Source: a virus
Taxonomy: Duplodnaviria > Heunggongvirae > Uroviricota > Caudoviricetes
IMG/VR virus record: IMGVR_UViG_2623620506_000008
Location: 1-27,625 of that record
Length of the DNA: 27,625 bases
Reading direction: 5' to 3' (one strand)
A model generated the notes under the pieces. It did not search any database. It saw nothing but the letters and a program-made list of their open reading frames with translations, and was not told the origin of the DNA. The stretch's first letter is position 1, and the number at the start of each line of letters is the position of its first letter. This document shows, one piece after another, positions 1-27,625 of the stretch. The position numbers and the translations under genes were made by a program.

Positions 1-945
1 TTAAGCTGCAGGCACGTCCATGTAGGCAATGGTGTTGCCGTACGGGGTTTCCACCTGACCCAGGCGGCCGTAGTAGGTTGTCAGCTGATACAGGCCGCGG
101 TATTCCAGCGGGGTATTCAGCAGCGGCACCAGCGGGAAGCGAATGAACTTCTCATCCTGGGTGTACGCTACAACGCGATGCGCGCCGGATGCGCCGCGTT
201 TGGACGCCCATTTCATGGACACGATTTCCAGCGGCTCGCCATTCTCCTGGAACGCAATACAGTTAATCTTCACGTACTCCAGCACGGAGACGTTGCCCGC
301 ATCAGAAACCTTCTTGCTTGCCAGCAGGCCGAATAACTCCGGCGCCAGGCCGACTTTTTTCGGGCAAATTGCGTAACCTGAAGTCACCCATGCCTGGGAA
401 AGAAGCAGGTTAAAGTCCTGCACGATTTCGTCAGGGCTGGCGGTGGCCCACGCTTTGGCTGCGCTGATCGGCGTTACCTGGGAAAGGTTCAACAGGCCGG
501 TGATGCCCATGTCGCTGTCGCCGATATAAACCTGCTCGTCGATGTCCATGTTCCATTTCAGCTGCATGGCATCATATTTTTGGCTGTCGATTGGGCGCCC
601 AACCTGCTGCGCTGAAGCAAGTTCCGGCAGGGTCCAGCCCAGCTCCATACCCCACAGACTAAGCGGCTGCGCGGTCTTCTCGATGTAGAGATTGGTTTGC
701 GGGAGCGCAGTGGAGTTTTTGCCGATCCAGTTTTTACCGTTCGGGTTTACACCACCAGCGGCTGCCAGATCGGTGTTGGTGAAAGATGACTGCTCGTCGG
801 CGATAGAAACGTCGCTACGCAGAGGCATATCGCGCGACCACTTATAGCTGACCAGCGGCAGGTTAAGCGTCTGGTCCAGGCGCTCAAGTTCACCAACCAG
901 AAATACGCCAGCAGCGTCTACGGTGGCCTTATCAATGGTAATCAT
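1..945 (-). CDS. Major capsid protein (possibly DUF2184-type)
   Basis: 314-aa ORF, ATG at 945 with AGGA RBS, last gene of a terminase-portal-scaffold-capsid series; family assigned from memory only. Confidence 0.6.
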   Translation of the reverse strand: MITIDKATVDAAGVFLVGELERLDQTLNLPLVSYKWSRDMPLRSDVSIADEQSSFTNTDLAAAGGVNPNGKNWIGKNSTALPQTNLYIEKTAQPLSLWGMELGWTLPELASAQQVGRPIDSQKYDAMQLKWNMDIDEQVYIGDSDMGITGLLNLSQVTPISAAKAWATASPDEIVQDFNLLLSQAWVTSGYAICPKKVGLAPELFGLLASKKVSDAGNVSVLEYVKINCIAFQENGEPLEIVSMKWASKRGASGAHRVVAYTQDEKFIRFPLVPLLNTPLEYRGLYQLTTYYGRLGQVETPYGNTIAYMDVPAA

Positions 946-956
946 TCATCGTTCCT

Positions 957-1475
957 TTAGATGTTGTAGGCGATTTCAACGTTGCCGTGGGTGGTGGTTG
1001 CCGCCGCATCGCCGGGGCCCATTACTTTCGCAATGGTCAGTTCCGGGGTGTTGGATGCAGTCGAGTCCGGCGTAAGAACTACAGAGCCCAGTGGACTGGA
1101 AGCCGTTGGGGCTGCGACGCGGATATAAACCTTGTCGCCCTTCTTGGCGGTACCGGCCTGAGCCGTAGGAACTGCCACGCAGATATAACCACGCTTCAGC
1201 TGGTCGCCGGTGTAGCCAGCCGTAATACCGAGAGATCGCGCGTCAGTCGGGTTGGTGGTTGGATACGGACGAACAAACAAGCCAGCGACATCATCGATGT
1301 CATCACCGGCTTCCAGCGGTACAAATTTACCGTTGAGGTTTTTGCCAGCCAGACCATACGAAGGGAATGGTTTAGCGGCATCGAGGATTGCAGGCTCTGC
1401 GGTGAGATCCTGCGGACGAGTAATAGCGCCAGGGAAACCAATCCCCATGCGAGTCAAATAAGCTTTACCAGCCAT
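957..1475 (-). CDS. Head structural / decoration-like protein
   Basis: 172-aa ORF between scaffold-like and capsid genes, Gly/Ala/Thr-rich; assigned by position. Confidence 0.4.
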   Translation of the reverse strand: MAGKAYLTRMGIGFPGAITRPQDLTAEPAILDAAKPFPSYGLAGKNLNGKFVPLEAGDDIDDVAGLFVRPYPTTNPTDARSLGITAGYTGDQLKRGYICVAVPTAQAGTAKKGDKVYIRVAAPTASSPLGSVVLTPDSTASNTPELTIAKVMGPGDAAATTTHGNVEIAYNI

Positions 1476-1486
1476 TGTTGGTTACC

Positions 1487-2743
1487 TTATTGGTTGCGTT
1501 TCCAGAATTCGGCGTTGTATTTGTTAATCTCTGCCGGGGTCATTGGGCCGCGGGCGCGGTCACCAGTTGGTTTGCCAGATGGCGGGGTGATGTGGTTCTT
1601 GGCCTTGCAGATCTCGACGGCAGCCTTAAACACCGCATCAACTGTGGCTTTCGGCGCTTTATCGAAATCGCTAATGCCAAACGCTTTGAGGCTGTCACCA
1701 GTACGCGCAGCATGTGCCAGCACCTGACGCTTCAGGCCTTTGTCGCTGGTAGGCTGGAAGCCCGGGCAGATGATTTCGGCGTCACCGATGATGTTGCGCT
1801 TATACGCCGCATCGCCGGTCACCTTCGCATCTTCTTCTGCGTCTTCGTCACCCGTCTTGGTGTCGTCATCCGGATCAGCGTCACCAGTTTTGCCTTCCAG
1901 CTTATCGAGGCGAGCAATCATTGCCTGCGCCCAAGCGGGCACCTCTTCGTCGCCGGTTTTCTTGTCATCTTCCGGATCTTCATCGGTCGTGGTCTTCTGG
2001 TCTGCCGGCAGCGCGGTAGCCTGTGAAGGCACGTTCATGTTGATGGTTAACCCGGGGATAGAACCCATGCCATCAGACGGCATGTCCGGCGCTTCGTCTG
2101 CAAGCTTAGCCAGCGCATCTTCATCCTTCGTGCGAATGGCGTTGGCCAGCTTCTGAAACCAGTTCTGCTGTTTCATGTTGCTTCCTTTGGTTGATGGGGC
2201 TGAATCCCCGATTGCACAGCGGGAACCCGCCCGACCCTTATCAACGATGGCCAGATGGTTTCCTGTGATTTCTGTTTGCTTGCCCTTACCCGGGCCGATT
2301 TGCACGTACTGGGCGTCGTAGCCGCAGCTGACCTGGTTCTTTCCGGCGTTGACCGCGTCGATACCCTCCTGCCGCTTCACCAGCACATCGGCGATCAGCA
2401 GGTCGGCTTTATCGCCGGTACCGCGCCGGACGTTCTGGATATGACCGTGGGCCAGCTCCGCGAAGTTCGCCGGGTTAACGAAAACGATGTTGCCTTCGCC
2501 GTCTTCCGGGTGGTCCAGCGTTACCGCCATGCCCTCGAAGCTCGCCATCGTCTCCGGGGAGAAAACCTCGTCCTCAGTGCGATAGACGACGACAAAGCCA
2601 TCAGCGCCGGGGATCAGGTCGATTTCTTCGGGGAGATAGGTTTGCGTGCCGGTGCGGGCGATCGGGACGTCTTTGCACAGCAGTGAGCCGTCCGCCAGCT
2701 GGTAGCGCGTTTCGCCCAGGCGGGTAGTGAAGAAGTATTTCAT
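1487..2743 (-). CDS. Capsid scaffolding / prohead protease-like protein (DUF2213-like)
   Basis: 418-aa ORF with a long acidic low-complexity middle (DEDPEDDKKTGDEE...) typical of scaffold proteins; sits upstream of the capsid gene. Confidence 0.5.
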   Translation of the reverse strand: MKYFFTTRLGETRYQLADGSLLCKDVPIARTGTQTYLPEEIDLIPGADGFVVVYRTEDEVFSPETMASFEGMAVTLDHPEDGEGNIVFVNPANFAELAHGHIQNVRRGTGDKADLLIADVLVKRQEGIDAVNAGKNQVSCGYDAQYVQIGPGKGKQTEITGNHLAIVDKGRAGSRCAIGDSAPSTKGSNMKQQNWFQKLANAIRTKDEDALAKLADEAPDMPSDGMGSIPGLTINMNVPSQATALPADQKTTTDEDPEDDKKTGDEEVPAWAQAMIARLDKLEGKTGDADPDDDTKTGDEDAEEDAKVTGDAAYKRNIIGDAEIICPGFQPTSDKGLKRQVLAHAARTGDSLKAFGISDFDKAPKATVDAVFKAAVEICKAKNHITPPSGKPTGDRARGPMTPAEINKYNAEFWKRNQ

Positions 2744-2769
2744 GGGTTACCTGCTGAATTGCGGGCAAT

Positions 2770-2794
2770 AAAAAAGGCCGCTCAGTGGCGGCCT
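2770..2794 (-). terminator. Rho-independent terminator after the 123-aa moron
   Basis: Minus-strand hairpin GGCCGCC-ACTGA-GCGGCC followed by TTTTTTATT, directly 3' of the ORF ending at 2816. Confidence 0.5.
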
Positions 2795-2815
2795 CGTTAT
2801 GAATTAACTCAGTTC

Positions 2816-3187
2816 TTATTCGTTATCGTCTTCATGGTTTTTAGTTGGCGGTAGCTTGAGCTTAACGATCGCCCGTTCAACCTCGTCATCAGAGGGCTTA
2901 ATGGCGTAAGCAATCAGATAAGCATCTGTGTTTCCGTCTTCCGTAGACCATACATAAGTTTCAATAGCATATTGCTCATACGACGGAGCTTTTGGACCCT
3001 TTAAATTAAAATGGGTATGTACCTTTTGCCCCGTCTGAACAATGAGCTTTTGCGGATCGCCCTCTGCAGGAAAATAAACATAGAAGTCCATGACAATCGC
3101 CTCGTTGAGAATATTACGGTCAATGTAACCTATTTCCTCGGAGGCGGCACCTGCACTTCCGGCCAGCATTTGCAGTTCGGCAGGCAC
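2816..3187 (-). CDS. Hypothetical protein (moron inside the head module); start uncertain
   Basis: ORF-track start is GTG and overlaps the upstream gene; ATG at 3169 or ATG at 3091 (GAGG RBS) are alternatives. GC is lower than the flanking head genes and it has its own terminator. Confidence 0.45.
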   Translation of the reverse strand: MPAELQMLAGSAGAASEEIGYIDRNILNEAIVMDFYVYFPAEGDPQKLIVQTGQKVHTHFNLKGPKAPSYEQYAIETYVWSTEDGNTDAYLIAYAIKPSDDEVERAIVKLKLPPTKNHEDDNE

Positions 3188-3888
3188 CCTGCGTGCCCGG
3201 TCATGCCGTCCAGCGTCGGCGGTTTATCCCAGCGCACAAATTTATTCCGCATTTTGTAGTGGGAATCCCGAGTTCCGGCCCCTTCTATACGCCACCAGTA
3301 GCCCTCTGAACCAATCGACTCTGCGCGCGCCTGGGTGAGTGCTGTCGTGGCCCTGCCGATTTCGGTGCGGGCGATCATCTTCGCGCGGCTCTCCGCCACG
3401 TCGCCGGACTCCATAATCATCCGGTAGAGCGCGTCGGGGCGTTCACCGTTGATGACGGCTTCCATTGCACGCGCCTGGATATCACGAACGCGGTCGGCAG
3501 CCTCCAGCGGCAGAGATTTAATCAGCTGCACCTGGCGGGATACGATGTCCTGAGCCACGAACCCCACCGGCGTATTGCCGACGACATCACGTAGCCCCTC
3601 AGAGATTTCCTGCGATACCGAGCGCCACTGGTTCCACTCCTCCTGCTCAACCTGCAGGAACATGCGTTTGGCTACCCGGTCGGCCCAGTCGTCAATCAGC
3701 AGTGAGTAATCCATCAGCCGGGCGCTAACCTGCTCGGCGCTGACCTCCGAACCATCGTAAGAGTCCGTTACGATCGCCCCTACCTGCTGCGCTATCTCCT
3801 GTAGGCTTTTCTGATACTGGCGCTCCGATTTGCGGCGGAGGTTCGGTTTCAGATTCAGCCTCCTCCCATTCTGCTTTGGCATCTTCAA
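3130..3888 (-). CDS. Head morphogenesis protein (Mu F / SPP1 gp7-like)
   Basis: Position right after portal; probable true start is ATG at 3882 with AAGGA RBS (the track start is TTG). Confidence 0.6.
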   Translation of the reverse strand: MKMPKQNGRRLNLKPNLRRKSERQYQKSLQEIAQQVGAIVTDSYDGSEVSAEQVSARLMDYSLLIDDWADRVAKRMFLQVEQEEWNQWRSVSQEISEGLRDVVGNTPVGFVAQDIVSRQVQLIKSLPLEAADRVRDIQARAMEAVINGERPDALYRMIMESGDVAESRAKMIARTEIGRATTALTQARAESIGSEGYWWRIEGAGTRDSHYKMRNKFVRWDKPPTLDGMTGHAGCLPNCKCWPEVQVPPPRK

Positions 3889-7250: not shown

Positions 7251-7272
7251 GTGATGGCAATAAAAAACCGCC
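7251..7272 (-). terminator. Rho-independent terminator after the 62-aa gene
   Basis: Minus-strand CCGCC-TCCG-GGCGG stem followed by TTTTTTATT, just 3' of the ORF ending at 7302. Confidence 0.45.
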
Positions 7273-7301
7273 CGGAGGCGGCTGGATATAATTGGTGAGT
7301 T

Positions 7302-7490
7302 TTATTTCTTCAAGGCTGCCTGGATAGCATCAGCCAGCTTTTCGATCCTGTCTGTAGCTTGATCTAAGTTACTATGCATCACTCCACCAGAACCTGCCGA
7401 AGCTTTTACTATTTCAAGGGCAGCCTGTACTGCAAGTAAACGTTGTCTGTCCTTCGTCGATACTGTGTTACCAAAATAACCGTCTAACAT
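7302..7490 (-). CDS. Small hypothetical protein (moron between lysis cassette and terminase)
   Basis: 62-aa ORF, ATG at 7490 with strong AAGGGAG RBS, own terminator, GC lower than neighbours. Confidence 0.5.
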   Translation of the reverse strand: MLDGYFGNTVSTKDRQRLLAVQAALEIVKASAGSGGVMHSNLDQATDRIEKLADAIQAALKK

Positions 7491-7579
7491 GATGCTCCCT
7501 TATTTGTTACGATAAGTTAAGTTTCAAGAGCATAATGTAGGTAGGCTCATAGATTTCAAGGGCAAATCCCACCAAAATT

Positions 7580-12429: not shown

Positions 12430-12723
12430 TCAATTACTGGCTGATAACTCTCTGACGATCTCCACCAGAGTTTCGCGTGATATGACGCGTTCGTCCGTCT
12501 GAAGGCGCTTATAGCCAATTTCTGCGCCAGCAACATTCACCAGCACACGATCTCCTGGCCGGAGTTTAAACGAACACGCGGTAGCGCCATCAGAACGCCT
12601 CACGATATCGAAATACTCACCTCCATCAGAACACACCTCAGCCACATCAACCCCCTTCTTTGCTATCAACAAATTTATCTCTGCCGGCGGGAAAAGCTCC
12701 CCTTCATGAAACCAAGATAACAA
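12430..12723 (-). CDS. Hypothetical protein with no in-frame ATG
   Basis: ORF has no ATG; candidate starts are TTG at 12723 or GTG at 12648 (AAGGGGG RBS 5 nt upstream). Lies 78 bp downstream of the LexA box on the minus strand. Confidence 0.3.
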   Translation of the reverse strand: MLSWFHEGELFPPAEINLLIAKKGVDVAEVCSDGGEYFDIVRRSDGATACSFKLRPGDRVLVNVAGAEIGYKRLQTDERVISRETLVEIVRELSASN

Positions 12724-12800
12724 ATGGCTCTAATTTCCTAATAGGTTGGCCGACAAAGAATTCAAAAATTTTACTGCAGCTCTTAAACCATATCTCAAAA

Positions 12801-12820
12801 TACTGTATAAATAAACAGTG
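12801..12820. promoter_or_regulatory. LexA (SOS) box
   Basis: TACTGTATAAATAAACAGTG matches the E. coli LexA consensus TACTGTATATATATACAGTA at 17 of 20 positions with intact CTGT-N8-ACAG; overlaps a plus-strand TTAAAC-18 bp-TATAAA promoter-like pair. Confidence 0.6.
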
Positions 12821-13140
12821 TTTATCCGTTCGGCTTAAGTATGCACGTGAAAGGCATCTTTGCGCAAGGTCATTTATCTAATTGATTTGGATAATTTTTA
12901 TCGCTACTTACGTGTAAAAAATGATCGTTATTTTTAACACTCAGCGCAGAAAAGTATGCTGGTATAGATATCTTATTCCAATACTCTAGCTTACCACTCA
13001 GGGAGTAGGTCCCTACGCCAAGGGTATATAGAAGCACGGACGCATTCTGTCAGGTTGGTAATTTGTTACTGCAGAGTGTATGTTTCATAATCGTTTTAAT
13101 AGATTAATATCATTTCATCGATCCGTTAAGGCGATCAAGT

Positions 13141-14184
13141 ATGCACGGCTGGCCTTCATACGACCAATGCTTAGAAAAGCATTCTGAAGAAACCATAAGT
13201 GACTTGCACTTTGTTACCACACCACTTCGGAAATTTGAGCTGACCAGTGGCTGCGCAAACGGGGTAGCACATTGCCTATTTAATTCTATAGAAGTAAAGT
13301 ACCCAACATTATTCAGCTATTTGTTAAGGGAATTTATGAAAAGAGGAATGATAATCACGAGTAAAGTTGAGATAGATCAGGAAAATAACTCCGTTAAATT
13401 TAGACCAGAATTTAGCCAAAAGGCTCTGCGATATGGAGTGCTTTATCTTGATGAAATTTGTGTCGCGCAGACCTCTCTGTTTCAAATTGGATTGCCGGTT
13501 GATTGGCAACAACTAAAGAAGGAGAAAATAGTTAATGAGATCATTGGTAAGCCATCGCTCAGCGGAACGGTCGATTTTGCAAAAGCAGCTTTAGATGCAT
13601 ATTCCCAGTCGTTTTCTGAGTTAAACAAACGCCGAAATGAAACTTGGTGTCTCAATAAAGAATTCAAATTCCTCAATGAGCGCATTCCATTTATTGATTG
13701 TCATGGGGAAACTCTAACATTTTTGAATGCGCTTCCTGTGCCTACCGAAGACTTTCCTATAGGTGATCTTTATGAATTCCGCATAAAAAGAGATGATGAG
13801 CGCAAAGAGTTGATGAATTCAATTGATCGACTTAGGCTCAACGTTCTGAAAAGTGAAGATAAACACAATGCACTTAAAGTAGGCTTACTTGATGTTGAGA
13901 GTAATCTCATAACAATGAATCGCCTAATCAAAGAAACGAAGAGAGGTTTCTACCTTACTGATTTTTCATTGGATTACTCATCTAAAGATATGCTCGAAGT
14001 TTTCAAAGGAACATATGAAGCAACCACCACCTCAGGATTCGACAAACTTTCAGCATTAATCTTAGGTATGGGGGCATCACTAGCTTCAGGATTCAATTTT
14101 AAGGGGGGATACAGATATAAGCAGGCAAAACCAAACTCCCCTTATTTTTACGCAGCAGAGATAGTACATAAGTTTGATGTTTAA
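13141..14184 (+). CDS. Orphan low-GC protein, function unknown (moron)
   Basis: 347-aa ORF on the opposite strand to the surrounding early operon; GC about 32-43% against 55-60% flanks; alternative start ATG at 13336 with AAGGGA RBS; strong hairpin just after the stop. Confidence 0.6.
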   Translation: MHGWPSYDQCLEKHSEETISDLHFVTTPLRKFELTSGCANGVAHCLFNSIEVKYPTLFSYLLREFMKRGMIITSKVEIDQENNSVKFRPEFSQKALRYGVLYLDEICVAQTSLFQIGLPVDWQQLKKEKIVNEIIGKPSLSGTVDFAKAALDAYSQSFSELNKRRNETWCLNKEFKFLNERIPFIDCHGETLTFLNALPVPTEDFPIGDLYEFRIKRDDERKELMNSIDRLRLNVLKSEDKHNALKVGLLDVESNLITMNRLIKETKRGFYLTDFSLDYSSKDMLEVFKGTYEATTTSGFDKLSALILGMGASLASGFNFKGGYRYKQAKPNSPYFYAAEIVHKFDV

Positions 14185-14195
14185 TTCTTCAAAGT

Positions 14196-14228
14196 GAGGA
14201 TTCAAATTTTAAGCGCATTTGAATCCTC
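14196..14228 (+). terminator. Perfect 12-bp stem-loop after the orphan gene (terminator or insulator candidate)
   Basis: GAGGATTCAAAT-TTTAAGCGC-ATTTGAATCCTC, 12 nt after the stop; weak U-tract. Confidence 0.4.
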
Positions 14229-14458
14229 GTCTTACTAAGTATATATCGTTTATGCCTAGAGTTTAATTACTGGAGTAAGATTTTCACTGACTTAAAATAT
14301 TGAACATGAGACGTTTAGGTATTTTCGGAGTTTGCGAGCCGACTAAGTAAACACAGCGTCCTTGACGCCCTACACTGACAACCTAACCTAGTCAGCATCT
14401 TTTTACGCTGATTCACTAATTATGTATGCCTGCGCGTTTAAATGCTCATTGGTGAATG

Positions 14459-14953
14459 TCATGGGTTAGTCCTCGCTAAAACTCTGATTCCCTCAGCAAT
14501 GTCTACCAACGTTTCTGAATATTCTCGCTGCGCGTCATTTCCAAATTCAAACGAGCCAGTGTCGTTATCAACACGACCATGCTCGTTATCGAAAGACTCG
14601 CGCTGCTTATCAACCCAGTTCGCAGCAGCAGACACACCTTCACTAAAAGCTGATTCTGTAGGCATGAAAGACAGATCGGCGAAGAACTCACCAAAGCCAA
14701 AGCAGACTGAATATGCCAGGCGGCCATGCGGTTTGTAGCCAGGGTTAGTGATATCCGTTGTTGAGTACGTGGCGGTGATTTCCTCAACTACCGCCTCTGG
14801 CCGCGATGGGTTATCAGACCATGGGATGCAAATCAGGTCGAAGTCTCGCGCCATCGTTCCATGAATAGCCATGGCGTAACCGTGCTTACGAGCTATCTCT
14901 GCCAGTGCCGGGTAAAGCGCGCAATATACTGGTGCGAAGTTAGCTGGTTTCAT
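14459..14953 (-). CDS. Hypothetical early protein
   Basis: Probable start is the ATG at 14953 next to the upstream stop; the track ORF extends to 15034; no confident family. Confidence 0.45.
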   Translation of the reverse strand: MKPANFAPVYCALYPALAEIARKHGYAMAIHGTMARDFDLICIPWSDNPSRPEAVVEEITATYSTTDITNPGYKPHGRLAYSVCFGFGEFFADLSFMPTESAFSEGVSAAANWVDKQRESFDNEHGRVDNDTGSFEFGNDAQREYSETLVDIAEGIRVLARTNP

Positions 14954-25567: not shown

Positions 25568-25891
25568 ATGACAAATTTCCGACAGCTTTATAATGAGTTG
25601 TCGGAAGCCGGAGGTAATATGGCCAAGCTTCTTAACCTGCAGGAATGGGCTAAAGAAACCTATTCAACACCGCCCTCTCTTTCTACCCTTCGCCGCTGGG
25701 CCAGGGAGGGGCGCATCTTTCCTGCACCAGCGCTTCATGGCAAAGAATATAAGGTTCAACCGGATGCTATCTATGTGGATCCGAGCAAAAAGAACCTGCG
25801 ACCGAAACCTAAACACATGACGCTGCCCGCCGGCGGCACCCTACTGGAGAGACTGACTCATGGCGAAAAGGCCAGTACGTTACGACGCTAA
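25568..25891 (+). CDS. xis: Excisionase, lambda Xis-like
   Basis: LNLQEWAKETYSTPPSLSTLRRWAREGRIFPAPALHGKEYKV resembles recalled lambda Xis; preferred start ATG at 25619 with GGAGG RBS; overlaps the int start. Confidence 0.75.
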   Translation: MTNFRQLYNELSEAGGNMAKLLNLQEWAKETYSTPPSLSTLRRWAREGRIFPAPALHGKEYKVQPDAIYVDPSKKNLRPKPKHMTLPAGGTLLERLTHGEKASTLRR

Positions 25892-26945
25892 TCTGCCCCG
25901 TAACCTGACCTATCGTAAAAGAGACAGGCTTTATAGCTGGCGCAACCCGACAACCGGCCAGGAAATATCTCTTGGCCGGATCGACAGGAAGGATGCCATC
26001 TCTCAGGCCATAGAGGCCAACAACTACATCGAACAGAATTACCTGCCCTCAGCTCTGCTTGACCGCATAAAGGAGACCCCTACCTTTACGGTTAAGAGCT
26101 GGCTTGAACGGTACGAGGTGATCCTTGAGCGAAGAGAGTTGAAGCCAAACACCATGAAGGTCAGGCGAAATCAGATCGCAACCATTAAGGATGAATTCGG
26201 CAAGATGCCGTTATCCTCAGTTAGCACGAAGGACATATCAAACTTTCTTGAGTCCTATATTTTATGCGACAAGAAAAGCATGGCCGCCGGCCTACGGTCC
26301 GTGCTGCTGGACATTTTCAGGGAGGCTATTGTCGAAGGGCATATAGAAAGGAACCCAGCGGATCCTACGCGAACGCCGACACCAAAGGTAAAACGGGAGC
26401 GTTTGCTGCTCGAGCATTTTATAGTTATCCGCGCGGCAGCTGCTTCCCACTCGGAGTGGTTGCCGAACGCCTGCAATCTTGCTCTGGTTACAGGACAGCG
26501 CCGCGAGGACATTTCGCTTTTTCGGTTCAGTGACGTTAAGGATGGTAGGCTATTTGTTACGCAGGAGAAGACGGGACACAAACTGGCGCTGCCGCTTGAT
26601 TTGAAATTGGAGGCCGTGGATCTTGTGCTTGAAGAGGTAATCGAACGCTGCAGAGTAAATAATCCCTCAGACTTTATGCTTTTCTCCCCAGTCAGGCGTG
26701 GGGGCAGAAAGCCGGGCCCCTTAACTCCAGATGGTTTAACCCAGGCTTTTGCGGATGTGCGAGATGCAACGGCGTTAAAATTTGGCCCGAACCCACCGCC
26801 CTACCATGAGATCAGAAGCCTGGCCAGCAGACTATATGAAAAGGAACGTGGAGAGGAATTCACGCAACGTTTGCTCGGCCACAAAAATTTAACAATGACA
26901 AAAAAATACCTGGACGCACGCGGTGCAGAGTATGTTATGGTTTAG
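25860..26945 (+). CDS. int: Tyrosine integrase, lambda Int-like
   Basis: Extensive similarity to recalled lambda Int (LALVTGQRREDI, HEIRSLASRLYEKE, LLGHK, Tyr near the C-terminus). Confidence 0.9.
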   Translation: MAKRPVRYDANLPRNLTYRKRDRLYSWRNPTTGQEISLGRIDRKDAISQAIEANNYIEQNYLPSALLDRIKETPTFTVKSWLERYEVILERRELKPNTMKVRRNQIATIKDEFGKMPLSSVSTKDISNFLESYILCDKKSMAAGLRSVLLDIFREAIVEGHIERNPADPTRTPTPKVKRERLLLEHFIVIRAAAASHSEWLPNACNLALVTGQRREDISLFRFSDVKDGRLFVTQEKTGHKLALPLDLKLEAVDLVLEEVIERCRVNNPSDFMLFSPVRRGGRKPGPLTPDGLTQAFADVRDATALKFGPNPPPYHEIRSLASRLYEKERGEEFTQRLLGHKNLTMTKKYLDARGAEYVMV

Positions 26946-27213
26946 ACAGGATATGGATTATTCGAGTAAGTTTCGGGGGATTTCGTGAGAACACCGAAAA
27001 AACCCTTAAGAAACAAATAGATAAAAAGAGACCGAATACGATTCCTGTATTCGGTCCAGGGAAATGGCTCTTGGGAGAGAGCCGTGCGCTAAAAGTTGGC
27101 ATTAATGCAGGCTTAGTTGCCTTGCCCTTTAAGAATAGATGACGACGCCAGGTTTTCCAGTTTGCGTGCAAAATGGTCAATAAAAAGCGCGGTGGTCATC
27201 AGCTTAAATGTTA

Positions 27214-27257
27214 AAAACCGCCCGTTCTGGTGAAAGAACTGAGGCGGTTTTTTTATT
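27214..27257. terminator. Bidirectional rho-independent terminator between int and the host gene
   Basis: AACCGCC...GGCGGTT stem with inner GTTCT/AGAAC pairing, flanked by AAAAA on one side and TTTTTTTATT on the other. Confidence 0.5.
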
Positions 27258-27283
27258 GGAAATCAAAACGCTAGTTTAGGTAA

Positions 27284-27625
27284 TTAACAGAGTTTTTCAG
27301 CTCGTTCTATAAACGGTGCCAGACTCATTTTTTCGCCGGGATTGTTAGGATCATCAATCTGAATCACCGAAATGGGTTGGGCTTTAGTCTTCCCACTGGC
27401 AACTTCCTTTTGTGCGATATCGTTTAAAGGATACTGCACGAGGGTACTTGGGTTGATGACATACAAAGCATTACCCGGTCGGCAAGTCAGCATCACCTCT
27501 TCGCGATTAAACGCCCATTTGTCTTTACCCACTTCAAAACGGCTGACGGTAATCACCTGCGGTGCAGCCAGCGCCGCTGCAGAACTGGTGAGTAACAGAA
27601 ACGCCAGAATACTTTTTTTCATCAT
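27284..27625 (-). CDS. yebY: Host periplasmic protein, YebY-like (DUF2511)
   Basis: 113-aa product with signal peptide [22 protein letters not shown]; closely matches the recalled E. coli YebY; ORF starts at the window edge. Confidence 0.6.

What the first reader, a model, noticed from the sequence alone, without database searches (positions are those of the whole stretch)
2770..3187. Moron with its own terminator inserted between head morphogenesis and scaffold genes
A 91-123 aa ORF (start ambiguous) of unknown function sits inside the otherwise tightly packed head operon. It is followed on its own strand by a clean GC hairpin plus T-run terminator, and its GC is lower than the flanking head genes. 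Autonomous morons in late operons often encode lysogenic-conversion or phage-exclusion functions.
Basis: partly seen in the sequence, partly recalled or inferred. Interest (0 to 1): 0.5.

Follow-up and report, generated by a model that had tools for sequence, protein, structure and literature searches.

The report
Passenger gene in phage head operon
A small, real but uncharacterised gene sits in a swap-prone slot of an E. coli prophage's head operon, and the terminator behind it belongs to the phage backbone, so this is an ordinary accessory gene rather than a self-contained insert.

Summary
On the minus strand there is an ORF ending at 2816, a strong hairpin plus T-run at 2795-2774, and a GC dip to 0.43 against 0.57-0.62 in the flanks.

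- **Real gene, short form.** The gene is 91 aa (ATG 3091, GAGG Shine-Dalgarno). Homologues all start there, and dN/dS is 0.11-0.38.
- **Dispensable insert.** A close Enterobacter relative has the exact empty site, with homology jumping from 2800 to 3131. Among 86 related head modules with both flanks, this MuF/scaffold slot is empty, holds a non-coding ~210-nt element, or carries one of at least 8 unrelated small ORFs.
- **The terminator is not the gene's own.** The same hairpin, T-run and leader precede the scaffold gene in 75 of 93 relatives, including 14 of 15 empty sites.
- **No promoter of its own was found.** The phage is lambdoid with a Q antiterminator, so the gene is probably read through as part of the late operon.

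The protein is soluble and acidic, with a confident predicted structure that matches nothing. Its family is tiny (14 clusters in 5.8 billion proteins), and all 15 copies examined lie in this slot. Function is unknown. My best guess is a host-directed late accessory protein. This is a new member of a known kind, of modest interest.

The parts
2816..3091 (-). ORF91: 91-aa acidic protein (pI 4.8, net charge -7), orphan family. This is the real coding sequence.
   Evidence: ORF list. Homologues of 88-97 aa start at the same M-D/N-x-Y. dN/dS 0.11-0.38. AF2 pLDDT 85.
3100..3103 (-). Shine-Dalgarno GAGG, 8 nt upstream of ATG 3091
   Evidence: Read from the sequence. An equivalent purine-rich motif is visible upstream of the start in the family members.
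3092..3187 (-). Upstream in-frame extension to GTG 3187 (the 123-aa reading, also used by some NCBI annotations). Judged not to be translated.
   Evidence: In 6 of 12 family members an in-frame stop lies between the MuF stop and the ORF start. No homologue is longer than 97 aa. PGAP 123-aa call seen.
2801..3130 (-). The inserted cassette as a whole (330 nt, low GC): 38-nt spacer, ORF91, and a 20-nt tail.
   Evidence: Enterobacter bugandensis locus L012 aligns to window 1-2800 and resumes at 3131. GC profile.
2774..2795 (-). Backbone hairpin of an intrinsic terminator (8 pairs, 6 of them G-C, loop of 6). It is not part of the insert.
   Evidence: Same element in relatives with an empty slot or other cargo. 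Different stem sequences at the same place in L015, L032 and L099.
2744..2773 (-). T-run plus conserved leader TTTTTTATTGCCCGCAATTCAGCAGGTAACCC of the scaffold gene
   Evidence: Near-invariant across 33 distinct sequences. Window 2658-2800 is the only stretch that megablast still detects in 12 Klebsiella/Wanchaivirus phage records and 27 E. coli genomes.
3130..3888 (-). MuF-like head morphogenesis gene (upstream flank). Its conserved 3' end is the other boundary of the slot.
   Evidence: PF04233 and phrog_324. Homology to relatives stops at its stop codon.
1487..2743 (-). DUF2213 / Pa193_gp24-type putative scaffold gene (downstream flank)
   Evidence: PF09979 at 6.7e-42. Pa193 gp24 is described as a putative scaffolding protein in PMC11456595.
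9605..10387 (-). Q-type antiterminator gene at the head of the late operon that contains the slot
   Evidence: PF03589 at 1.7e-44. All genes from here down to coordinate 1 lie on the minus strand.

Best explanation
Window 2801-3130 is a 330-bp passenger cassette in a hypervariable slot of the late operon of an E. coli lambdoid prophage. The slot lies between the MuF-like minor head gene and the scaffold gene. The cassette carries one genuine gene, 91 aa, starting at ATG 3091 with its own Shine-Dalgarno sequence. It has neither a promoter nor a terminator of its own.

Shown: the gene is real and under purifying selection. It is absent from close relatives, so it is not needed to build a head. 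The hairpin plus T-run after it is a conserved backbone element that precedes the scaffold gene whether the slot is empty or filled. Alleles of the gene are exchanged between backbones independently of the flanking genes.

Inferred: the gene is transcribed only by read-through from the Q-antiterminated late promoter, together with the head genes. Q-modified polymerase passes the hairpin, while any unmodified transcription stops there. The slot is refilled by homologous recombination between the conserved MuF 3' end and the conserved hairpin/leader.

Inferred with lower confidence (about 0.3): the product, a soluble acidic beta-rich protein with an unmatched predicted structure and a disordered acidic tail, acts on the host rather than on the capsid. 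It could serve as a counter-defence or host-takeover factor late in infection, or be delivered with the virion.
For: **Gene reality.** Sixteen homologues align over the full length with 10 invariant residues. dN/dS is 0.11-0.38. The AF2 model has pLDDT 85 and pTM 0.70.

**Insert status.** An exact empty site is seen in L012. Empty 51-nt sites occur in Klebsiella phage Mulock and E. coli ST540. Slot lengths in 86 loci are 46-52, 248-265, 324, 341, 369, 385-402, 455-477, 511, 773 and 2446 nt, carrying unrelated ORF families.

**Backbone terminator.** It is present in 75 of 93 loci: 14/15 empty sites, 36/36 of the non-coding type and 25/25 of other cargo. G.U pairs form only on the sense strand (22 of 33 sequences at one pair). 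Whole-stem replacements occur in L015, L032 and L099.

**No own signals.** There is no sigma-70-like site on the sense strand upstream of the ORF in the window or consistently in relatives. By contrast, the window's other moron (7559-7266) and the L001 cassette do carry their own signals.

**Late read-through context.** A Q antiterminator is followed by lysis, terminase and head genes, all on one strand.

**Shuffling.** ORF identity to the window is 55-60% where the flanks are 95-96% identical (L009, L100), and 61% where the portal is 55% identical (L008). The identity profile drops to 0.57-0.68 only inside the ORF body. dS is saturated between WIN and L009.

**Host-directed rather than structural.** There is no co-variation with MuF, portal or scaffold. 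The predicted structure does not match any solved structure, decoration proteins included. All members are acidic with an acidic tail. A positionally analogous slot just upstream of the protease/scaffold gene holds the anti-CRISPR genes of Mu-like Pseudomonas phages (PMC3993853; low GC there too, PMC4378225).
Against: - No expression data exist. A weak or non-consensus promoter cannot be excluded by a consensus scan.
- All 15 copies seen lie in this one slot of this one head-module type. That could equally mean a functional tie to the head.
- Late timing is awkward for a counter-defence protein unless it is packaged or counters late-acting defences.
- Nothing links the protein to any known anti-defence family: PADLOC, Pfam, PHROGs, NCBIfam, PDB and BFVD are all negative.
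- Statistical covariation support for the hairpin is absent because the stem is nearly invariant.
Confidence: 0.5

Rival explanations
1. Dispensable virion or assembly accessory. The protein would be made with the head proteins and either ride inside the capsid (an internal or ejected protein, perhaps recruited by MuF or by the scaffold's electrostatic interface through its acidic tail) or assist MuF or scaffold function in some hosts.
For: It lies inside the head gene block, with constant spacing to MuF (35-39 nt) and to the scaffold gene in every member. Every copy examined is in this slot. It probably shares late expression with the head genes. The Pa193 scaffold binds the capsid interior electrostatically through an acidic turn (PMC11456595). 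MuF-family proteins are proposed to carry cargo into the capsid (PMC5576092).
Against: It is absent from most related heads, including close relatives with 86-96% identical flanks. Its divergence is uncoupled from MuF, portal and scaffold. There is no structural similarity to any solved virion protein. Restriction to the slot is also explained by recombination at conserved flanks, and it applies equally to the unrelated cargoes.
Confidence: 0.2
2. One reading: an autonomous moron expressed from the prophage that gives the lysogen a conversion or phage-exclusion trait.
For: Low GC, presence/absence polymorphism, and a terminator immediately downstream that would stop non-antiterminated transcripts. 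Other cassettes in the same slot are clearly autonomous: L001 has an opposite-strand ORF with its own terminator.
Against: No promoter-like site was found upstream on the sense strand in the window, and none is conserved among relatives. Only 38 nt separate the MuF stop from the start codon. The terminator is a backbone element. The protein has no signal peptide or membrane segment visible in its sequence, unlike typical exclusion proteins (read from the sequence).
Confidence: 0.15
3. An immunity-type partner of a MuF polymorphic toxin system: the small ORF downstream of MuF protects against a MuF-borne toxin domain.
For: [quoted passage not shown] The ORF here directly follows a MuF gene.
Against: This MuF is the short form. 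The PF04233 match runs to residue 241 of 252 and there is no C-terminal extension. Relatives with the same MuF lack the ORF.
Confidence: 0.03
4. Not a gene: a chance ORF in an AT-rich spacer.
For: No database family. It is short. The commonest occupant of the slot in relatives is non-coding.
Against: Full-length conservation down to 31-34% identity with invariant residues, length differences confined to whole codons, dN/dS 0.11-0.38, and a confident AF2 model.
Confidence: 0.02

Closest known systems
Morons and variable moron slots in lambdoid late operons (for example the 'ant moron' of P22-like phages; PMC2629481)
   Same: An extra gene appears between two conserved morphogenetic genes when relatives are compared. 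It has atypical composition. One fixed location carries many alternative contents: ten types in sixteen P22-like genomes there, and at least ten states in 86 loci here. The operon is antiterminated.
   Different: The classical moron is usually independently expressed, with its own promoter and terminator. Here no promoter is detectable and the terminator is a pre-existing backbone element shared by all occupants and by empty sites.
Anti-CRISPR (acr-aca) locus of Mu-like Pseudomonas phages, between the gene G homologue and the protease/scaffold gene (PMC3993853; PMC4378225)
   Same: The position is analogous: immediately upstream of the scaffold gene within the head morphogenesis block. Both are low-GC, hold small unrelated orphan proteins that are mixed and matched among close relatives, and are dispensable for assembly.
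   Different: The acr locus has a conserved promoter at its 5' end and a conserved HTH gene (aca1) at its 3' end. Neither is present here. The head modules are not the same lineage. No anti-CRISPR or other anti-defence activity is known for ORF91.
MuF polymorphic toxin plus immunity modules (PMC5576092)
   Same: A small ORF lies directly downstream of a MuF-family gene in the packaging/head module of a temperate phage.
   Different: The MuF here is the short form without a toxin domain. The downstream ORF is optional among phages with the same MuF.
Optional head decoration / cement proteins (lambda gpD, T4 Soc, PaMx73 protein h; PMC4378225)
   Same: A small, beta-rich, dispensable protein encoded among head genes and variably present among relatives.
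   Different: Those genes usually lie between the scaffold and major capsid genes. A cement protein is already encoded there in this phage (1475-957). ORF91 has no structural similarity to any solved structure, these proteins included.

Membership tests
Moron (comparative definition: extra gene inserted in a phage operon relative to related phages) | Present in some and absent from other related genomes at the same junction, with conserved neighbours | tested here: met
   Exact empty site in L012. 15 empty sites among 86 loci.
Moron (comparative definition) | Nucleotide composition distinct from the surrounding operon | tested here: met
   GC 0.43-0.47 against 0.57-0.62 in the flanks. All family members are 0.36-0.45.
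Autonomous moron (own promoter and terminator, expressed from the prophage) | Own promoter upstream of the gene | tested here: not met
   No sigma-70-like site on the sense strand in 2800-3300. None is usable or conserved in L008, L095, L098 or L099. Caveat: this is a consensus scan only, so weak promoters are not excluded.
Autonomous moron (own promoter and terminator, expressed from the prophage) | Terminator that came with the insert | tested here: not met
   The hairpin lies outside the insert boundary (2801). It is present in 14/15 empty sites and behind all other hairpin-bearing cargo types.
Autonomous moron (own promoter and terminator, expressed from the prophage) | Transcribed in the uninduced lysogen | not testable with these tools
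   Needs RNA-seq or 5'-RACE.
acr-aca anti-CRISPR locus | Conserved promoter at the 5' end and an HTH (aca) gene at the 3' end | tested here: not met
   No promoter. The cassette holds a single ORF with no HTH and no Pfam match.
acr-aca anti-CRISPR locus | Inhibits a CRISPR-Cas system | not testable with these tools
   Functional assay needed. No sequence or structural similarity to any solved protein.
MuF polymorphic toxin / immunity pair | MuF protein with a C-terminal toxin extension | tested here: not met
   The PF04233 match ends at residue 241 of 252 and there is no further domain.
Head decoration / cement protein | Structural or sequence similarity to known decoration proteins, and retention across related capsids | tested here: not met
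Intrinsic (Rho-independent) terminator | G+C-rich stem-loop directly followed by a U-run on the transcribed strand | tested here: met
   8-pair stem, 6 G-C pairs, tail TTTTTTATT. Folding energy -14.9 kcal/mol, z -3.2. G.U pairs only on the sense strand. Actual termination was not tested.

The most novel reading that the evidence does not exclude
ORF91 founds a new family of phage counter-defence or capsid-delivered effector proteins with a fold not seen before. On this reading the MuF/scaffold slot of these enterobacterial lambdoid prophages is a counter-defence hotspot equivalent to the anti-CRISPR locus of Mu-like Pseudomonas phages. It would hold at least eight unrelated orphan protein families plus a conserved ~210-nt non-coding element, all docking in front of one shared backbone terminator.
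Probability: 0.2. Interest if true: 0.6.

Novelty: new member of a known kind. Interest (0 to 1): 0.3.

Why it matters
Variable slots in phage late operons are where anti-CRISPRs and other host-manipulating genes have been found before. This work defines another such slot precisely: the fixed MuF 3' end on one side, and a fixed terminator plus leader on the other. It catalogues the slot's occupants and shows that one of them is a real, selected gene for a protein whose confident predicted structure matches nothing known. That gives a short, testable list of candidates for accessory functions in E. coli, Enterobacter, Klebsiella and Citrobacter prophages. It also corrects the idea that a terminator next to a low-GC ORF marks a self-contained moron. 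For the window itself the result is ordinary: an uncharacterised passenger gene.

Tried and rejected
- **The 123-aa reading from GTG 3187.** Rejected. Homologues are 88-97 aa, and the upstream frame is closed in 6 of 12 members.
- **MuF-ORF91 fusion by frameshift or stop read-through.** Rejected. The frame relation and the open upstream frame are not conserved, and no canonical slippery heptamer is visible in the 58-nt overlap (sequence).
- **Homology between ORF91 and the other cargo ORFs of the slot.** None by profile search.
- **Protein family libraries.** Pfam, PHROGs, PADLOC and NCBIfam gave nothing beyond two PHROG matches at E = 0.016-0.055, which disappeared when all members were scanned.
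- **PDB sequence profile search.** Nothing.
- **Public sequence searches.** A metagenome contig scan with the family profile found nothing. tblastn against 50,697 phage records and blastn against 5,426 complete E. coli genomes gave no match.
- **Rfam on the non-coding slot occupant.** Nothing.
- **Covariation statistics on the hairpin.** Not significant, because the stem barely varies. The argument for structure rests on sense-strand G.U pairs and three whole-stem replacements.
- **Literature search by accession numbers.** Nothing.

Full report
**What is in the window**

All genes in the first 10 kb run on the minus strand:

| Gene | Coordinates |
|---|---|
| Q-type antiterminator | 10387-9605 |
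| Holin | 9311-8862 |
| Putative endolysin (assigned by position; no family match) | 8590-8114 |
| Spanins | 8117-7580 |
| Small terminase | 7164-6457 |
| Large terminase | 6421-5216 |
| Portal | 5203-3725 |
| MuF-like head morphogenesis protein | 3888-3130 |
| ORF in question | 3091-2816 |
| DUF2213 / Pa193_gp24-type putative scaffold | 2743-1487 |
| Cement protein | 1475-957 |
| Major capsid protein | 945-1 |

The far end of the window holds an integrase (25860-26945), then the host sRNA genes RyeA/RyeB and yebY at 97% identity to E. coli. So this is a lambdoid prophage of E. coli whose head module is of the E217/Pa193 type.

- The ORF runs from 3187 (GTG) or 3091 (ATG) down to 2816.
- A hairpin GAGGCCGC-CACTGA-GCGGCCTT lies at 2795-2774, followed by TTTTATTGCC. 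It is the best terminator-like site in the first 8 kb. It folds at -14.9 kcal/mol, z = -3.2.
- GC falls to 0.43-0.47 across 2701-3200, against 0.57-0.62 on either side.

**The gene is real and 91 aa long**

- A word-indexed search of 5.8 billion proteins found three relatives at about 60% identity. A full HMMER scan of 1.84 billion representatives and a profile re-search raised this to 14 clusters, down to 31-34% identity.
- Apart from two truncated calls of 61-62 aa, all are 88-97 aa and all begin M-D/N-x-Y at the position of ATG 3091. Ten residues are invariant.
- A GAGG Shine-Dalgarno sequence sits 8 nt upstream.
- In 6 of 12 members an in-frame stop lies between the MuF stop and the ORF start. 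This rules out the 123-aa form, which some NCBI records annotate, and any conserved frameshift fusion to MuF.
- dN/dS between pairs is 0.11-0.38.
- The exact 91-aa protein is already in NCBI as an E. coli 'hypothetical protein' on 17 contigs. It is absent from 5,426 complete E. coli genomes and from 50,697 phage records.

**It is an insert in a hypervariable slot**

An Enterobacter bugandensis prophage with 86-93% nucleotide identity aligns to window 1-2800 and resumes at 3131. This defines the insert as 2801-3130: from the base after the MuF stop codon to the base before the hairpin.

I collected 80 IMG/VR loci with the MuF protein, plus loci from E. coli genomes, cultured phages and public assemblies. 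I then measured the distance from the MuF stop to the scaffold start in the 86 loci that had both flanks.

| State of the slot | Gap (nt) | Loci |
|---|---|---|
| Empty | 46-52 | 15 |
| Conserved AT-rich stretch, stops in all six frames | 261-265 | 36 |
| ORF family translationally abutting the scaffold gene | 248-258, 455-460 | 17 (one also with an IS insertion; gap 2446) |
| ORF91 | 385-402 | 4 |
| 65-aa ORF on the opposite strand | 402 | 3 |
| 67-aa ORF | 324, 341 | 2 |
| 89-aa ORF | 369 | 1 |
| 80-aa ORF | 477 | 4 |
| 139-aa ORF | 511-512 | 3 |
| 214-aa HTH protein | 773 | 1 |

None of the other cargoes matches the ORF91 profile. None has a Pfam or PADLOC family, apart from weak HTH hits in the 214-aa protein.

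**The terminator is not the ORF's own**

Side-by-side reading shows the same element directly before the scaffold start codon in five kinds of locus: Klebsiella phage Mulock and E. coli ST540 (empty), E. coli PSJ-22 and GZ2408P (other cargo), phage EKP1 (non-coding occupant) and the window. The element is the hairpin, the T-run and the leader TTGCCCGCAATTCAGCAGGTAACCC.

- A uniform scan finds a terminator-like hairpin within 75 nt of the scaffold ATG in 75 of 93 loci. That is 14/15 empty sites, 36/36 of the non-coding type and 25/25 of other cargo types. It is missing only from the 17 loci whose ORF abuts the scaffold gene.
- The stretch 2658-2800 is the only part of the 2.6-kb query that megablast still detects in 12 Klebsiella/Wanchaivirus phage records and 27 E. 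coli genomes. It is an unusually conserved piece of DNA.
- Formal covariation statistics are not significant, because the stem hardly varies.
- However, 22 of 33 distinct sequences have a U.G pair that works only on the sense strand. Three loci (L015, L032, L099) have an entirely different stem at the same place. This points to a conserved RNA hairpin rather than a protein-binding palindrome.

**No promoter of its own was found**

- Only 38 nt separate the MuF stop from ATG 3091.
- The consensus scan finds no sigma-70-like site on the sense strand there. In four other family members it finds nothing usable or conserved.
- The same scan does pick up a clean promoter for a different small gene in this window. 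At 7559-7266 there is a promoter, a Shine-Dalgarno sequence, a 62-aa ORF and a terminator, all in a low-GC patch between the spanin and small terminase genes. That is a canonical autonomous moron, and ORF91 does not look like it.
- The opposite-strand cassette in E. coli PSJ-22 likewise brings its own terminator.
- Because the phage has a Q antiterminator upstream of an uninterrupted same-strand late block, I infer the following. ORF91 is transcribed with the head genes by Q-modified polymerase, which reads through the hairpin. Unmodified transcription stops there. This inference rests on established lambda biology and was not tested.

**How the slot is refilled**

Every one of the 15 ORF91 copies I could place lies in this slot, with a 35-39-nt spacer after MuF. 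Its divergence is nevertheless uncoupled from the backbone:

| Locus | Flank identity to the window | ORF91 identity to the window |
|---|---|---|
| L009, L100 | portal and MuF 95-96% | 55-60% |
| L099 | portal 87% | 37% |
| L008 | portal 55% | 61% |

Against L100 and L009, identity is 0.87-1.0 across most of MuF. It is 0.97 in the spacer and first codons, 0.57-0.68 in the ORF body, and 0.90-0.95 at the hairpin and leader. dS between WIN and L009 is saturated. So old alleles are being swapped between backbones. The most plausible route is homologous recombination in the conserved flanks. That would also explain why all cargo types are confined to this position.

**The protein**

- It is acidic (pI 4.0-5.1, net charge -4 to -17) and always ends in an acidic tail. 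I see no signal peptide or membrane segment in the sequence.
- With 16 sequences, AlphaFold2 gives pLDDT 85 and pTM 0.70. The model has six strands, one helix (68-77) and a disordered tail.
- The structure is therefore unmatched in what I could search. AFDB50 was unavailable.

**Function**

Function is unknown, so what follows is inference. The protein is dispensable for assembly. It does not co-vary with its head neighbours. It shares its slot with many unrelated orphan genes. These points favour a host-directed accessory role over a structural one.

The closest analogy is the anti-CRISPR locus of Mu-like Pseudomonas phages. That locus lies between the gene G homologue and the protease/scaffold gene, is low in GC, and is mixed and matched among relatives (PMC3993853; PMC4378225). 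It has a conserved promoter and an aca gene, and both are missing here, so this is an analogy of position and behaviour, not membership.

The main rival is a dispensable virion-associated protein. That would fit the exclusive association with this head module, the late timing and the acidic tail. MuF proteins are proposed capsid cargo carriers (PMC5576092). The Pa193 scaffold binds the capsid interior electrostatically (PMC11456595).

The MuF toxin/immunity idea fails because this MuF has no toxin extension.

**Comparison with what is known, and verdict**

By the comparative definition quoted in PMC2629481, a moron is a gene that appears inserted when relatives are compared and is usually independently expressed. 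ORF91 qualifies as a moron in that broad sense. The slot also behaves like the P22 'ant moron' region, which shows ten types in sixteen genomes. It is not an autonomous moron.

The kind of feature is known, while the protein family is uncharacterised and rare. I rate it a new member of a known kind, with interest about 0.3. There is a 0.2 chance that the slot is a counter-defence hotspot and ORF91 a new effector, which would be worth about 0.6.

Noticed in passing
window 7266-7559 (- strand): A canonical autonomous moron lies between the o-spanin and small terminase genes. It has a sigma-70-like promoter (TTGAAA-16-CATTAT, 7559..7532), SD AAGGGAG, a 62-aa ORF (7490..7302), and a hairpin terminator (7283..7266) whose tail TTTTATTGCC is identical to that of the 2795..2774 hairpin. 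GC is 0.42-0.46. No family match.
   Followed up: partly
window 3725-3888 (- strand): The portal 3' end and the MuF-like 5' end overlap by about 160 nt. Both frames stay open and are 60-70% conserved at protein level in loci whose portal is only 55% identical. tblastn supports a 252-aa MuF, whereas public annotations-221 aa. This is either a genuine long dual-coding overlap or a mis-set boundary.
   Followed up: partly
L039 3757-4017; also L003 (phage EKP1), L007 (phage YP3), and about 36 of 86 loci: The commonest occupant of the MuF/scaffold slot is a conserved AT-rich stretch of about 210 nt (GC about 0.42) with stops in all six frames. It ends at the backbone terminator. It has no Rfam match and no sigma-70-like promoter. 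It could be an sRNA, a regulatory region or a decayed cassette.
   Followed up: partly
window 12500-14500: A low-GC island (0.38-0.41) holds a 347-aa DUF6236 protein on the + strand (13141-14184), opposite to the surrounding phage genes. No NCBIfam match. It is a candidate prophage-expressed cargo.
   Followed up: no
window 25860-27625: The prophage/host junction: a lambda-type integrase (25860-26945), then the RyeA/SraC and SdsR/RyeB sRNA genes (27019-27163), then yebY at 97% identity to E. coli.
   Followed up: partly
L026, L029, L030, L035-L037, L052, L072, L076, L018-L022, L068, L086, L088: In 17 loci the slot holds a different conserved small ORF (ending ...KALLREFIRNxDPALI or similar). 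Its stop abuts the scaffold Shine-Dalgarno sequence, and the backbone hairpin is missing. In L027 this version also carries an IS element with a 483-aa transposase.
   Followed up: no
L099 4296-4317; L015; L032: At the same position as the backbone hairpin, these loci have unrelated stem sequences (CCCAGCC/GGCTGGG, GGCCTGC/GCAGGCC, GGCCCGC/GCGGGCC) followed by the same T-run and leader. So the structure is kept while the sequence is replaced.
   Followed up: partly
protein cluster holding the window's ORF91: In the 90%-identity protein collection, the exact 91-aa protein is filed in a cluster whose representative is a 217-aa protein and whose other members are MuF proteins. This is probably why the first homology search did not return the protein itself.
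   Followed up: no
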